The position numbers and the translations under genes were made by a program. A stretch of 64,000 nt of DNA from Roseateles sp. GTDB lineage: Bacteria > Pseudomonadota > Gammaproteobacteria > Burkholderiales > Burkholderiaceae_C. How positions within the stretch are numbered: position 1 is the stretch's first letter; each line of letters begins with the position of its first letter. The stretch spans positions 21,608-85,607 of the forward strand of contig NZ_JBMLSK010000371.1 in assembly GCF_049240545.1 (NCBI RefSeq), given 5' to 3'. Under the pieces are notes generated by a model that saw nothing but the letters and a program-made list of their open reading frames with translations, had not been told where the DNA came from and did not search any database. Shown here piece by piece: positions 10,701 to 13,632 of the stretch.

Positions 10701-11044
10701 TGCAGCAATGGGGCATGGAGGTCTCGCAAGCCAATGATGGCAGCCAGGCGGTGGAGGCGATCTTTGCCGCCGCCAGCATGGGCAAGCCTTTTGACGCGGT
10801 CTTGATGGATGTGCAGATGCCGGTCATGAGCGGCCATGAAGCCACCCGCGAGGTGCGCAAACGCTACGACGCCGAAGAGCTGCCCATCGTGGCGCTGACC
10901 GCGGCGGCGCTGGTGTCCGAGCGCGACGAGGCGCTGGCGGCAGGCATGAATGACTTTTTGACCAAGCCCATCGATGCGCCCAAGCTGCGCGCCACCTTGG
11001 TGCGCCTGATCGGCCACCGCGACAACGATCAGACCCGCAGCTGA
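7760..11044 (+). CDS. Membrane-bound multi-PAS hybrid histidine kinase with C-terminal receiver
   Basis: N-terminal TM bundle, about 4 PAS domains (ADWYWE, SPSPL, SPDVIT, ASIGIT), NTSHEIRTPLNG, GGTGLGL, REC VLMDVQMP/FLTKP. Confidence 0.95.
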   Translation: MSKDSLDDLSSLVGHDLPAGEQHTMLERKVRWHSIRLFIGASAIILLFAFAVLLFGRQASEPLQGLLPPAMAAGTALISLLCLWKLPRRLGSAAVVTLLGLLMGLAVLIAVSRATGLYSISLPVMALLVAFATAMLGQRTGLALTVVGLLGVLGLALAEQAGWASSPTALSSLLLRTLSHAVLLLAGLVVGYAMLRMVQRSTKEAAERNARFRGLLSMAADWYWEMNRDYRFTHLAEDRPGKSGLDLQARLGKTPWEVEQIGLSDEDMDAHRADLESHRPFHGLVARRRGSDGDIRYVSISGEPRFDAQGNFRGYWGVGRDVTEEVQAEKAIHATETRYRELFRRSPSPLVLHRWGRVLDANPAAMAMFGYTQRSSMIGQDLFAHYEPGDDERARQRAGKIETMAVGAMLPMAEFRLRTLSRRRRLVSATSVRVDAASGPATLSFFIDQTEQSRAQDALRRSEGLLSHLVATSPDVITLTELSSGRYAMVNKTFERLSGYSSEEVLGRTAEELGVWKDPRDRERVLEGVRLHGRVTELPVTFVTKSGEPISMLMSAAPFAMDGQQYLVINARDVSEAERTRLVHQAILENASIGITLTRDQHFVQVNRLVEEMFGWPSGALIGQHGSIVWPSKEEYVAAGDELGARLAAGEQVEIERLMRRRDGSSFLCRLLAKAVDPNHPSRGGTIWILEDITERRRVEAALAQAKDEAQAASRAKSAFLANTSHEIRTPLNGLLGLARMLQQPDLNEQTRREYLDQMLDSAESLSGLISDILDLSKIEAGRLTLEAAPFGLRDMLATMRMAYLTLAQAHKLAFKIEVEEAVPAWVVGDQVRIRQILSNYLSNALKFTANGSVAVHVRSLGDDKIRIEVSDTGPGIAPEMHQRLFQAFTQADESTTRRFGGTGLGLSICRELATLMGGEVGVQSELGQGSTFWAELPLPAAPTPISSQPREARNNEDLQGLRVLMVEDHPVNMMIAVAQLQQWGMEVSQANDGSQAVEAIFAAASMGKPFDAVLMDVQMPVMSGHEATREVRKRYDAEELPIVALTAAALVSERDEALAAGMNDFLTKPIDAPKLRATLVRLIGHRDNDQTRS

Positions 11045-11088
11045 AATCCTGCCCGGCCGCTTACTGCCGGGCAAGAGACAATTGGGGC

Positions 11089-11814
11089 ATGAGTACGCCC
11101 CAACGCTCCCAAGCCCTCGCCCTGCTGCCCGACAAAGGCCTGCCCGATCTGCTCTTTTTGCTGCTGCACGGCGCCGGCGCCGATGCCTCGCAAATGCGCC
11201 CGCTGGCCCAGGCCTTGCGCGCTCAGTACCCGCAGGCGGCGGTGGTGTCTATCAACGGGCCTGAGGCTTTCGAGCCGCCCTCGTCCGAAGCGCATGCTGA
11301 TGGTGGCCGGCAGTGGTATTCGCTGCAAGGCGCCAATGACGACAACCACCCCGAGCGCGTCGGCGCCGCCCTGCCCGGCTTTATTGCCACGGTGAGAGCC
11401 TGGGCCGAGCAGTTCGACATGGCCTGGGAACGCGTCGCTCTGGCGGGCTTCTCGCAGGGCGCCGTGCTGGCCCTGGAAGCCGTGCAAGCCGAGGCGCAAC
11501 TGGCCGGTCGGGTGCTGGCCTTCTCGGGTGCCTACGCCACGCCGCCGACGCATGCGCCACATGAAGTCAGCCTGCACTTTTTGCACGGCCAACGTGACCC
11601 GGTGCTGCCCTATCAGGACCAGGTCCATGCGGCACGCCGATTGGTGCAGTTAGGCGCCGACATCACCGCCGATGTGCTGCCCGATCTGGGCCATGAATTG
11701 CACCCCGAGTTGATCGAGCGCGCCATGCAGCAGTTGCGAACCTTTGTGCCGGCACGGCTCTGGCGCGAAGCCCAACTGGCTGCAGCCGAACAAGACAAGC
11801 AAGCTCCGCATTGA
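11089..11814 (+). CDS. Phospholipase/carboxylesterase (YpfH-like alpha/beta hydrolase)
   Basis: LLHGAG, GFSQG nucleophile elbow, HGQRDPV, GHEL catalytic triad motifs. Confidence 0.9.
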   Translation: MSTPQRSQALALLPDKGLPDLLFLLLHGAGADASQMRPLAQALRAQYPQAAVVSINGPEAFEPPSSEAHADGGRQWYSLQGANDDNHPERVGAALPGFIATVRAWAEQFDMAWERVALAGFSQGAVLALEAVQAEAQLAGRVLAFSGAYATPPTHAPHEVSLHFLHGQRDPVLPYQDQVHAARRLVQLGADITADVLPDLGHELHPELIERAMQQLRTFVPARLWREAQLAAAEQDKQAPH

Positions 11815-11840
11815 GCTGCCGTTATGGCAAACTCCGGGCA

Positions 11841-11997
11841 CAGCGCCAACCGGGGCGCTGCTGGATCCGCAGACAGGGCTGAGCCCACCCGGGCGGGCGC
11901 GAGTTGAAGACCGCGTCCGAACCATCACTTGCTTGATTGACGCCTTTGTGCGGCCTGATTGCGCGGATCGCAGGCTTACCACGCATGGAGGTTTCCC
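11841..11997 (+). promoter_or_regulatory. Candidate structured RNA leader upstream of the ankyrin gene
   Basis: Several perfect stems: CAGCGCC/GGCGCTG (11841-11860); long-range GATCCGC (11864-70)/GCGGATC (11963-69); GGGC-tga-GCCC; CGGGCGCG/CGCGTCCG; ATCA/TGAT. SD GGAGGT at 11987-92. Confidence 0.5.
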
Positions 11998-13632
11998 TTG
12001 AAGACAAGCCACGACGGGGCCGTGCCCCAACTGCCTGCCAAAGCCAATCTGCAGCAACTCAAACGCCAAGCGCGTGAACTGCTGCGCGCCTGGCAAGCCG
12101 CCGACCCAGCCAGCCTGGCACGCGCCGCCCCTTATCAACGGGCCCACGCCCCCGAGCCACCCAAGCTGAGCCTGGCTCAGCTGGTGATTGCGCGTGAGCT
12201 GGGCTTCCCGAGCTGGCCGGCGCTGCAAGCGGCGGTGTCGACCCAAGAACAAGCGCGCCAGCTGGACAGCGCGGCCCTGGTGCAACGCGTCTTGGCGCTG
12301 AGCCTGGGTCGCGGCTGGGACAGCCCCCAGCCTGAACGCGCCCTGGCCCTGCTGCAGCAAATGCAAGGCGCTTGCCCCCGTGAGTTGCGCCCCGCCCTGG
12401 CCCTGCTGCGCGGCGAATTGGACGCGCTCGAGAGCCCGCCCACGGCCGGGCAGCGTCTGCCGCCCTTCGATGCACCGGCCTTGGCCTATGTCTGCTTCTC
12501 CGGCCTGCACCGGCTGGGCGAGCCCTGGGCCAGCGGCCTGTTGCGCAGCGCCCAGACCCTGCATTCACCGCTGAGCCCGGCCGCCCTGAATGCACTGCGC
12601 ATGCCCGACCCCGATCTGCCCGCTGAAGCCGATTCATCCGATTCAGCCGAAGTGCCCAGTCTGCCGCTGCTGTACGGCGCCATCGCCCGAGCACAAAGCC
12701 CGGCGCTCGCCGCCGCCCTGCTGGCTGCCGGCGCCGAGCCCAACGATGGCGAGTCGCTGTATCACGCTTGCGAAGACCCCGACCGGGCTCGCGCGGCACT
12801 GCAAATCCGCCAACTGATCGCCCATGGCGCGCGCTTGCAGGGCACAAACGCGCTCTTGCGCTTGCTCGACTTTGAGGACCTTGCCGGCCTTGAGTTGGCG
12901 CTGAGCCTGGGGGCCGATGTCAATGAAGCTGGCCCGCAAGGCGGCCATGCCTTGCACCATGCGCTGCGCCGGGGCCGCTCCAGCGCCTGCCTGAAGCTGC
13001 TGATCGCGCAGGGTGCCGATCTTTCGGCACGCGACGCCGAGGGCCGCACGCCGGCCACTTTGGCGGCGCTGCTCGGTGAGCTTGAAGCGCTCAAGTTGTT
13101 CGCGGCACAGGGCGCCCAGCCTGAATTGCCATCCACGCGAGAACGCTTCTTGGCGGCCTGCGCGGCCGCCGATGAACACAGTGCCCGGGCCCTGCTGCAA
13201 GCGCAGCCCGATCTGCTGATTCTGCTCGGCCCACAAGAGCTGCGCCTGCTGCCCGACCAGGCGCAACGCCGCGCACGAGCCTCCGTGGCCTTGATGCTGT
13301 CGCTGGGCTGGCCGATTGCGGTGACAGGCGACTGGGACGCCAGCGCCCTCAACCAAGCGGCCTTCAACGGCGACGCCGGCCTGGTGCAACTGCTGCTGGA
13401 GCACGGCGCCCGCTGGCAAGAGATCAACGGCTTTGGCGGCGATGTGATGGGCAGCTTGCAGCATGCCGCCGTGCATCTGCCGCAGCCCGGCGGCGACTAT
13501 CTGGGCACGCTGCAAGCCTTGTTGGCGGCCGGTGCGCCCTGGCCGACAGAGGATGAGCGGGAGGAATTGCCACCCGTCCTGCAAGCCTGGCTGGATGATT
13601 CGGAGCCGCTGTCGCCAGCGCCCCAAGGCTAG
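11998..13632 (+). CDS. Ankyrin-repeat protein with small N-terminal helical domain
   Basis: N-terminal LPAKANLQQLKRQARELL...AQLVIARELGFPSWPAL; ankyrin repeats (GESLYHA, GGHALHHA..LLIAQGADLSARDAEGRTP, SALNQAAFNGDAGLVQLLLEHGA). TTG start at 11998 sits 5 nt after GGAGGT. Confidence 0.88.
   Translation: MKTSHDGAVPQLPAKANLQQLKRQARELLRAWQAADPASLARAAPYQRAHAPEPPKLSLAQLVIARELGFPSWPALQAAVSTQEQARQLDSAALVQRVLALSLGRGWDSPQPERALALLQQMQGACPRELRPALALLRGELDALESPPTAGQRLPPFDAPALAYVCFSGLHRLGEPWASGLLRSAQTLHSPLSPAALNALRMPDPDLPAEADSSDSAEVPSLPLLYGAIARAQSPALAAALLAAGAEPNDGESLYHACEDPDRARAALQIRQLIAHGARLQGTNALLRLLDFEDLAGLELALSLGADVNEAGPQGGHALHHALRRGRSSACLKLLIAQGADLSARDAEGRTPATLAALLGELEALKLFAAQGAQPELPSTRERFLAACAAADEHSARALLQAQPDLLILLGPQELRLLPDQAQRRARASVALMLSLGWPIAVTGDWDASALNQAAFNGDAGLVQLLLEHGARWQEINGFGGDVMGSLQHAAVHLPQPGGDYLGTLQALLAAGAPWPTEDEREELPPVLQAWLDDSEPLSPAPQG

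What the first reader, a model, noticed from the sequence alone, without database searches (positions are those of the whole stretch)
11815..12280. Highly structured, possibly switchable RNA leader in front of an ankyrin gene with a small N-terminal helical domain
Seen in the ~180-nt gap after the esterase: a 7-bp hairpin (11841-60), then a ~105-nt domain closed by GATCCGC (11864-70)/GCGGATC (11963-69). Inside it are GGGC-tga-GCCC, an 8-bp stem CGGGCGCG (11894-901)/CGCGTCCG (11912-19) and ATCA/TGAT. The 3' closing strand can instead fold locally (GCCT 11953-56/AGGC 11972-75 plus GCG/CGC), which excludes the long-range stem. A strong SD (GGAGGT) follows, paired with a weak TTG start. The protein opens with a ~65-aa helical module (LPAKANLQQLKRQARELLRA...AQLVIARELGFPSWPAL) distinct from its ankyrin repeats. 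Inference: an undescribed cis-regulatory RNA or small ncRNA, possibly bound by that module (autoregulation or a ribonucleoprotein), with the ankyrin body as sensor or effector.
Basis: partly seen in the sequence, partly recalled or inferred. Interest (0 to 1): 0.75.

Follow-up and report, generated by a model that had tools for sequence, protein, structure and literature searches.

The report
New widespread kissing-loop leader RNA
The gap in front of this ankyrin gene holds a real, intricately folded leader RNA, absent from Rfam. It buries the ribosome-binding site and occurs in at least twelve bacterial phyla, always directly before genes that begin with the same small helical protein domain, so it is probably a new translation-control element whose trigger is unknown.

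Summary
The single sequence does not fold better than shuffled controls (z -0.63), so the support comes from comparison.

A ~155-nt RNA (window 11838-11994) is conserved upstream of every orthologue in Roseateles/Paucibacter. It is also found in 79 of 80 loci from at least 12 phyla that were chosen only because they encode the protein's N-terminal helical module.

Six helices covary: 95.7% of cells are paired, 29 of 34 pairs changed on both sides, and 0 of 500 shuffles reached this. They include:
- a hairpin-loop pseudoknot;

In eight whole genomes, 10 RNAs and 10 modules pair one to one. The RNA follows the module, not the ankyrin body; other bodies are methyltransferases, a phosphorylase and unknown domains.

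No Rfam family matches and no paper was found. All helices can form at once, and no mutually exclusive fold is supported.

Best reading: a new translational leader that sequesters the SD. The trigger is unknown: the encoded module itself (about 0.4) or a small ligand (about 0.35). RNA-seq could not be consulted.

The parts
11838..11994 (+). Whole conserved leader RNA (covariance-model match)
   Evidence: R1 gives 168.7 bits, E 1e-39; it is the single copy in the genome. In genome coordinates it is G000:C371:33445-33601.
11841..11860 (+). H1 hairpin: CAGCGCC / loop AACCGG / GGCGCUG
   Evidence: Covaries. Examples: column pair 5-24 has GC 42, AU 12, CG 6, UA 4; pair 10-20 has CG 52, UA 9.
11850..11854 (+). 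PK1 5' strand (CCGGG), in the 3' half of the H1 loop
   Evidence: Pairs with 11888-92. Variants across lineages: CCGGG/CCCGG, ACGGG/CCCGU, GCAGG/CCUGU, GCAAG/CUUGC, GGAGG/CCUCC. This helix was not in the model used to build the alignment.
11861..11872 (+). Mini-hairpin: 2-bp stem C11861-G11872 and U11862-A11871, closing the 8-nt loop GGAUCCGC that carries the kissing (P1) 5' strand 11864-70
   Evidence: RNAalifold pairs 26-38 (CG 76, GC 3) and 27-37 (CG 68, UA 11) are never broken. It starts directly after H1.
11876..11886 (+). P2 hairpin GGGC-UGA-GCCC
   Evidence: 99.7% of cells paired. Pair 46-57 has GC 39, AU 35, CG 3; pair 48-55 has CG 68, AU 8, UA 3.
11888..11892 (+). PK1 3' strand (CCCGG)
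11894..11919 (+). P3 hairpin, a lineage-specific insertion in the variable linker
   Evidence: Present in Roseateles/Paucibacter. Absent from L018-20, L022 and most other phyla.
11942..11952 (+). Anti-SD strand GCCUUUGUGCG
   Evidence: Pairs with 11982-92. Eight of nine modelled pairs show changes on both sides. Examples: CCCUCAGUC/GACUGGGGG in L043, and CUCUUCCUCG/CGAGGGAGA in Actinomycetota.
11953..11975 (+). P4 hairpin GCCUG/CAGGC. Its 13-nt apical loop carries the kissing (P1) 3' strand GCGGAUC at 11963-69.
   Evidence: P4: pair 145-166 has UA 46, CG 21, UG 6. P1: pair 31-160 has GC 44, AU 12; pairs 32-159, 33-158 and 34-157 also change on both sides.
11982..11992 (+). SD strand CGCAUGGAGGU; the SD GGAGG is at 11987-91
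   Evidence: The 3' hairpin alone averages -16.8 +/- 3.7 kcal/mol over 68 sequences.
11998..12000 (+). TTG start codon of the ankyrin gene
   Evidence: Homologues have TTG, GTG or ATG at this position; the start lies 0-7 nt after the motif in nearly all 79 loci.
12031..12252 (+). Coding region of the N-terminal helical module (LPAKANLQQLKRQARELL...AQLVIARELGFPSWPALQAAV)
   Evidence: The family has 10,155 clusters at E<=1e-3, nearly always at the N-terminus. The model has four helices at pLDDT 74. There is no Pfam model apart from a weak match to the N-terminal part of Glyoxalase_8.
12253..13632 (+). Ankyrin-repeat body of the protein
   Evidence: Pfam Ank_2 with E 2.6e-14 at residues 312-389 of the long ORF.
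11821..11834 (+). Genus-conserved block GTTATGGCA(A/C)ACT, 7 nt upstream of H1; possibly part of a promoter (unverified)
   Evidence: It is conserved even where the upstream gene differs. The sigma-70 consensus scan found nothing.

Best explanation
The region is the 5' leader of the ankyrin-gene mRNA. It folds into one compact structure that controls translation initiation.

Shown:
- A 5' domain (hairpin H1, a pseudoknot from its loop to the stretch after hairpin P2, and a mini-hairpin stacked next to H1) is joined by a variable linker to a long 3' hairpin.
- The lower stem of the 3' hairpin pairs an anti-SD strand with the Shine-Dalgarno sequence.
- The apical loop of the 3' hairpin kisses the mini-hairpin loop through 7 base pairs.
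- The start codon follows 1-7 nt after the structure.

Inferred:
- In the folded state the SD is unavailable, so the default is low translation. Whatever stabilises or loosens the kissing/pseudoknot fold sets the output.
- My preferred trigger is the protein's own N-terminal helical module. It would bind the leader of its own mRNA as it emerges from the ribosome and lock the fold, giving negative autoregulation. I prefer it because the RNA and this module are inseparable across phyla and across different protein bodies.
For: Structure:
- All six helices covary in 79 sequences from at least 12 phyla. The mini-stem covaries too.
- PK1 and P1 were not part of the model that made the alignment.
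- Abundant G-U pairs fit only the + strand.
- The SD lies inside the helix in all phyla, and the start codon is 0-7 nt downstream.
- The 3' hairpin averages -16.8 kcal/mol.

Coupling to the module:
- 79 of 80 loci picked by the protein alone carry the RNA.
- Three of three further proteins picked from an independent search carry it.
- 10 RNAs match 10 modules in 8 whole genomes.
- All 22 credible RNA hits in 400 genomes of the family, and all 11 in 401 Actinomycetota genomes, precede module genes.
- The RNA is kept with non-ankyrin bodies.

The module is basic on average: net charge +2.8, pI 9.6, with conserved Arg/Lys.
Against: - No binding data exist, and the module has no recognisable RNA-binding fold (Foldseek and PDB searches found nothing).
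- The one-to-one coupling could simply mean that one gene family, defined by its 5' end, keeps one leader while its 3' bodies are swapped.
- A fold this elaborate and this well conserved across phyla is more typical of metabolite riboswitches than of protein operators.
- One module gene (L104) lacks the RNA.
Confidence: 0.4

Rival explanations
1. A new class of small-molecule or ion riboswitch. The 5' pseudoknot domain and the kissing helix would form the ligand pocket, and ligand binding would stabilise (OFF) or perturb (ON) the SD-sequestering hairpin.
For: - The core nucleotides are highly conserved (UCCGCGG, GAA, GCGGAC) and the double-pseudoknot architecture holds across at least 12 phyla.
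- The expression platform is integrated, as in SAM-II or preQ1-type switches.
- In a nested energy model the P1-closed state and the SD-hairpin state are nearly equal in energy: 2.4 +/- 5.7 kcal/mol apart.
- There is precedent for a candidate tied to a single gene of unknown function: the yjdF motif (PMC4793209 abstract).
Against: - The RNA was never found before a transporter, a biosynthesis gene or any gene without the module.
- The gene bodies are functionally unrelated, so no pathway points to a ligand.
- No covariation supports a second, mutually exclusive conformation.
Confidence: 0.35
2. A ligand-independent leader. It would act as a built-in translational attenuator, an RNA thermometer or an mRNA-stabilising 5' structure that keeps output of this gene family low or condition-dependent without a specific effector.
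For: - The SD hairpin is stable and always present.
- In the window the SD helix has 4 G-U pairs out of 11, as thermometers often do.
- All helices are mutually compatible, so no switch is required.
Against: - Simple attenuation or thermosensing needs only the 3' hairpin.
- That would not explain selection for a covarying 5' pseudoknot domain and a 7-bp kissing helix across phyla.
- The G-U content of the SD helix is not conserved; many lineages have C-G at those positions.
Confidence: 0.12
3. The leader is a functional RNA partner of the protein. It would stay bound to the module, possibly after processing, and take part in the protein's function, as the omega-RNA upstream of iscB does for IscB.
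For: - The coupling is strictly one to one and the RNA sits immediately upstream of the ORF.
- The module is basic.
- The module is the only part shared by proteins with different bodies.
Against: - There is no evidence for a stable processed RNA.
- The RNA's 3' half is the ribosome-binding site of the gene, which fits regulation.
- No nucleic-acid-acting domain is seen in the bodies; most are ankyrin repeats.
Confidence: 0.1
4. Chance stems in GC-rich intergenic DNA, or a DNA-level operator made of inverted repeats, rather than an RNA.
For: The single-sequence folding energy is no better than shuffles (z -0.63).
Against: - Compensatory changes occur in 29 of 34 pairs, with 0/500 shuffles reaching this.
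- G-U pairs are allowed only on the gene strand.
- All model hits have a fixed orientation and distance to the start codon.
Confidence: 0.01

Closest known systems
SD-sequestering pseudoknot riboswitches (SAM-II/SAM-V, preQ1-II/III); comparison from established knowledge
   Same: The ribosome-binding site is part of the conserved fold. Pseudoknots rather than a separate terminator make up the expression platform. Control is translational.
   Different: No Rfam model matches. This RNA is larger, with two domains and a loop-loop kissing helix. The ligand is unknown. It is tied to a single protein domain family rather than to a pathway.
ZTP riboswitch (pfl motif); comparison from established knowledge
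   Same: Two subdomains are separated by a linker of variable length and tied together by a long-range tertiary helix.
   Different: There is no sequence or model similarity. Here the long-range helix joins two hairpin loops. The associated genes are unrelated to purine or folate metabolism.
Autoregulatory mRNA leaders of RNA-binding proteins (ribosomal-protein leaders such as the rpsF/S6:S18 motif, PMC3895269; the thrS operator)
   Same: The leader is found only in front of the gene whose product would bind it. Repression acts at the ribosome-binding site.
   Different: The module is not a known RNA-binding domain and binding is untested. The distribution spans at least 12 phyla with high sequence conservation. 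The partner is an N-terminal domain fused to varied bodies.
yjdF motif RNA (PMC4793209)
   Same: A structured leader associated almost exclusively with one gene family of unknown function.
   Different: A different fold with no model match. yjdF binds azaaromatic compounds in vitro; nothing comparable is known here.
HEARO / omega-RNA upstream of iscB; comparison from established knowledge
   Same: A large structured RNA lies immediately 5' of an ORF and is obligatorily coupled to it.
   Different: No nuclease or transposon context. The RNA here contains the gene's SD in a helix, which fits regulation better than a guide role.
UPD-PK motifs of Weinberg et al. 2017 (recalled from memory only; could not be verified in the held text)
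   Same: As I recall, these are pseudoknotted motifs upstream of genes that share an unannotated protein domain.
   Different: If they are in Rfam, they do not match this RNA. I recall them from different lineages (Firmicutes and Gammaproteobacteria).

Membership tests
Any Rfam 15 family | Covariance-model score at or near the family's gathering threshold | tested here: not met
   Window 11000-13000 at E<=10 gave only chance hits of 22 bits or less on other coordinates or the other strand. Twelve diverse loci at E<=1 gave zero hits.
Riboswitch (generic) | Conserved structured aptamer supported by covariation | tested here: met
Riboswitch (generic) | Expression platform coupled to the aptamer | tested here: met
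   The anti-SD:SD helix is part of the conserved fold in all phyla. No terminator is present.
Riboswitch (generic) | Association with genes of a coherent pathway or transport function that points to a ligand | tested here: not met
   Only genes starting with the module were found. The bodies are ankyrin repeats, methyltransferases, PNP_UDP_1 or unknown domains.
Riboswitch (generic) | Direct, selective ligand binding by the RNA | not testable with these tools
   Needs in-line probing, SHAPE or ITC.
Autoregulatory protein-binding leader | Leader found only upstream of the gene for the putative binding protein | tested here: met
   79 of 80 loci, 10 RNAs for 10 modules, 22 of 22 and 11 of 11.
Autoregulatory protein-binding leader | The encoded protein binds the leader and represses its own translation | not testable with these tools
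   Only indirect hints exist: the module is basic (pI 9.6). No known RNA-binding fold was found.
Intrinsic terminator / transcription attenuator | GC-rich hairpin followed by a U-run on the gene strand | tested here: not met
   No + strand terminator-like site in 11600-12100.
RNA thermometer (ROSE / fourU type) | A simple SD-masking hairpin with conserved weak or non-canonical pairs | tested here: inconclusive
   The SD helix in the window has 4 G-U pairs, but these are C-G in many lineages. The conserved 5' domain is not needed for a thermometer.
Ankyrin-repeat protein (Pfam Ank clan) | Ank repeat profile matches above the curated cut-off | tested here: met
   Ank_2 scores 54 bits against a cut-off of 27.3.
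Glyoxalase_8 (PF20066), for the N-terminal module | Score above the gathering threshold of 23.7 bits | tested here: not met
   15.5 bits, E 0.018, and only the N-terminal part of the profile.

The most novel reading that the evidence does not exclude
The leader and the N-terminal module form an obligate RNA-protein pair. In this reading the module is a new, very large family of RNA-binding domains (more than 10,000 clusters). The leader-derived RNA is not only an operator but stays bound as a structural or functional cofactor of the protein, so the pair is a portable RNA-plus-domain cassette that has been fused to many different bodies.
Probability: 0.1. Interest if true: 0.9.

Novelty: new member of a known kind. 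Interest (0 to 1): 0.8.

Why it matters
If confirmed, this adds a widespread structured leader RNA that is missing from Rfam. It occurs in at least 12 phyla, with hundreds of species already visible.

Its architecture is well defined: a pseudoknot, a loop-loop kiss and a buried ribosome-binding site.

It also flags an unannotated N-terminal protein domain family of more than 10,000 sequence clusters, whose only known common property is that its genes carry this leader.

Either outcome is useful:
- a new orphan riboswitch class with an unknown and probably unusual ligand; or
- a new RNA-binding domain with its operator.

The strict one-to-one pairing makes both readings directly testable with one RNA and one ~70-residue domain.

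Tried and rejected
- **Rfam.** Permissive scans of the window and of 12 diverse loci found nothing.
- **Repeats.** The leader is single-copy in its genome, so it is not a REP-like repeat.
- **Promoter and terminator.** The consensus scan gave no sigma-70 site and no + strand terminator. A sigma-54 reading of TGGCAC was rejected by eye because the -12 GC is not conserved.
- **Alternative, mutually exclusive helices.** Two were tested: P1 5' strand with P4 5' strand, and P1 5' strand with PK1 3' strand. Both are complementary only through conserved sequence and show no covariation.
- **Order-level search outside the home family.** R2 found nothing credible. That was a sampling and sensitivity limit, not absence, because protein-guided loci in other phyla all carry the RNA.
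- **Module identity.** Pfam, NCBIfam, PDB sequence search and Foldseek gave no meaningful match. The only PDB hit is JUBO2 (9s82, E 0.005), which looks like a designed protein.
- **Glyoxalase_8.** The family is absent from the four actinobacterial genomes searched, so it could not be tested for the leader.
- **Viral contigs.** No relatives of the module.
- **Literature.** Searches by gene association, by core sequence and by motif name found nothing.
- **Co-variation of RNA and module subtype.** The short-module variants showed no obvious RNA difference.
Full report
**1. What is in the window.**

The 183-nt gap lies between an Abhydrolase_2 esterase (11089-11814) and an ankyrin-repeat gene.

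On its own the sequence is not unusually structured. The MFE is -76.0 kcal/mol against -73.1 +/- 4.5 for dinucleotide shuffles, z -0.63; the opposite strand gives z +0.52. A permissive Rfam 15 scan (E<=10) finds nothing relevant. The stretch is single-copy in its genome.

**2. Orthologues.**

A whole-genome search found the ankyrin protein in 21 relatives: the same genus, named Roseateles/Paucibacter by the records, plus one other genus. Protein identity ranges from 40 to 90%.

All 21 keep a strongly conserved block upstream, including the eight loci where no esterase homologue was detected upstream. The reading frame upstream of 11998 is not conserved as protein. Homologues have TTG, GTG or ATG exactly where the window has TTG 11998, 6 nt after GGAGG. 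So 11998, not the longer ORF start at 11959, is the start.

On the 21-sequence alignment the helices are 96.6% paired, with 13 pairs changed on both sides and 0/500 shuffles reaching this.

**3. Wider distribution.**

- A covariance model (R1) found one copy per genome in about 22 further genera of the same family. Every credible hit is followed within a few nucleotides by a gene that opens with the same helical module, LPxRPDxxxLKKQAKxLL...AQxxIAREYGFxSW. One of these genes (L053) has a non-ankyrin body.
- Protein homologues of the module from other lineages also have the RNA directly upstream. They are an Acidobacteriia ankyrin protein, a metagenomic LCM/TIGR00027 methyltransferase and a SnoaL+ankyrin protein.
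- I then selected loci by the protein module alone: 551 or more matching stretches in one genome per species, of which the best 80 loci were kept. The model found the RNA in 79 of the 80, ending 0-7 nt before the start codon.
- The record titles name Pseudomonadota, Actinomycetota, Acidobacteriota, Chloroflexota, Planctomycetota, Armatimonadota, Gemmatimonadota, Verrucomicrobiota, Spirochaetota, Latescibacterota, Dormiibacterota and Eiseniibacteriota.
- The single exception (L104, Chloroflexota) has an N-terminal module but no leader.
- In eight whole genomes, 10 modules and 10 RNAs were found, each RNA immediately upstream of a module.
- In a sample of 401 Actinomycetota genomes, 11 carry one copy each and all 11 precede module genes. 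One of those genes is cut by an IS256-like insertion.
- Three more proteins, taken from an independent library-wide profile search, also have the RNA ending 1-2 nt before the called start.
- That profile search counts 10,155 clusters with the module at E<=1e-3, nearly always at the N-terminus and often in two or three tandem copies.

**4. Structure.**

On the 79-sequence cross-phylum alignment, six helices are 95.7% paired. Shuffles give 83.1% and slid partners about 45%. Of 34 pairs, 29 changed on both sides in 341 cells, and all five measures score 0/500. In window coordinates the helices are:

- H1: 11841-47 / 11854-60.
- PK1: H1 loop 11850-54 with 11888-92. Variants are CCGGG/CCCGG, GCAAG/CUUGC, GCAGG/CCUGU and GGAGG/CCUCC.
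- P1: 11864-70 / 11963-69.
- P2: 11876-79 / 11883-86.
- P4: 11953-57 / 11971-75.
- Anti-SD:SD helix: 11942-52 / 11982-92.

PK1 and P1 were not part of the model that made the alignment, so their counts are unbiased.

RNAalifold adds a 2-bp mini-stem (11861-62 / 11871-72) with CG 76 / GC 3 and CG 68 / UA 11, never broken. It encloses the P1 5' strand in an 8-9-nt loop directly after H1.

P1 is therefore a loop-loop kissing helix between this mini-hairpin and the apical loop of P4. The stem 11894-919 is a lineage-specific insertion in a variable linker, and ATCA/TGAT is not conserved. Frequent G-U pairs fit only the gene strand.

**5. Is it a switch?**

A systematic scan for other conserved complementarities found two candidates involving the P1 5' strand. 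Neither exceeds shuffles: 88.8% against 88.3%, and 87.1% against 86.0%.

In a pseudoknot-free energy model the "P1 closed" and "SD hairpin" states differ by only 2.4 +/- 5.7 kcal/mol. The 3' hairpin alone is -16.8 +/- 3.7 kcal/mol. This is compatible with either bistability or coexistence and decides nothing.

What is shown is that the SD is paired within a conserved fold in every phylum. That this sets translation, and how it is relieved, is inference.

**6. The protein partner.**

Of the 79 proteins, 68 have ankyrin bodies. The others have PNP_UDP_1, Methyltransf_11, a TIGR00027 methyltransferase or no Pfam match.

The module has no Pfam model of its own. It gives only a sub-threshold match to the N-terminal part of Glyoxalase_8.

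AlphaFold2 with 80 sequences gives four helices at pLDDT 74. Foldseek against the PDB finds nothing. The only PDB sequence hit is JUBO2 (9s82, E 0.005), which looks like a designed protein.

The module is basic on average: net charge +2.8, pI 9.6, with conserved Arg/Lys positions.

**7. Interpretation.**

The safe statement, at about 0.85, is this: a new, widespread, structured 5' leader buries the ribosome-binding site and is specific to genes that start with this module.

For the trigger I prefer autoregulation by the module (0.4). The reasons are the strict two-way coupling and its persistence with unrelated bodies. A small-molecule riboswitch is nearly as likely (0.35), given the elaborate, cross-phylum-conserved fold and the yjdF precedent of a single-gene association. 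The coupling could also reflect one gene family keeping its 5' end while bodies are exchanged downstream. A ligand-independent attenuator (0.12) and an RNP role (0.1) remain possible.

**8. Novelty and limits.**

No Rfam 15 family matches. Full-text searches by association, by core sequence and by motif name found no description. Supplements of the large motif surveys were mostly not held, so an earlier listing cannot be fully excluded.

No promoter was identified. A genus-conserved block at 11821-34 is the only hint.

Noticed in passing
L155 (actinobacterial genome G1047:C1:1217112-1217233 and downstream): The leader is intact, but the gene behind it stops after about 47 codons. Another frame then reads like an IS256-family transposase, so an insertion sequence appears to have cut the module gene just after its first residues (ELPSQLRQ).
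   Followed up: partly
L104:1180-2640 (Chloroflexota MAG): This is the only module gene of 80 without the leader. The protein also carries a second, partial copy of the module (EEDARLVVANEQGYAFWRKYESYLY) further in.
   Followed up: partly
Library-wide protein search: Many module proteins have two or three tandem copies of the module. Some records are about 80-130 residues long, so they are either stand-alone modules or fragments. The family has more than 10,000 clusters and no Pfam model of its own.
   Followed up: no
L067:1927-2053: The public gene call starts at 2001, inside the conserved leader RNA. The true start must lie after the SD, near 2050, so the annotated N-terminus (VGFFLGLSSGPQAKEEDA...) is probably spurious. 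In the window, the longest ORF (TTG 11959) likewise overlaps the RNA.
   Followed up: partly
L124 and L117 (records titled Micrarchaeaceae archaeon and Bifidobacterium sp. MAGs): These contigs have 64-72% GC over the RNA match and an actinobacterial-type leader and module. They look mis-binned rather than being true archaeal or Bifidobacterium sequences.
   Followed up: no
PDB 9s82 chain A ('JUBO2'): An 89-residue PDB chain aligns to the module profile, including the AQ(I/L)VxxIAxEYGF signature (E 0.005). Its composition looks designed. No paper on it was found.
   Followed up: partly
window 11821-11834: The block GTTATGGCA(A/C)ACT, 7 nt upstream of H1, is conserved across the genus even where the upstream gene differs. 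More distant relatives have NANNNT hexamers (TAAGAT, CATCAT) at the same distance. It may be a -10 region, but no -35 was recognised.
   Followed up: partly
L154, L156-L158, L153 (Actinomycetota): A short form of the module (about 48 residues, lacking the middle helix and loop) also carries the leader, here with a slightly shorter kissing helix.
   Followed up: partly
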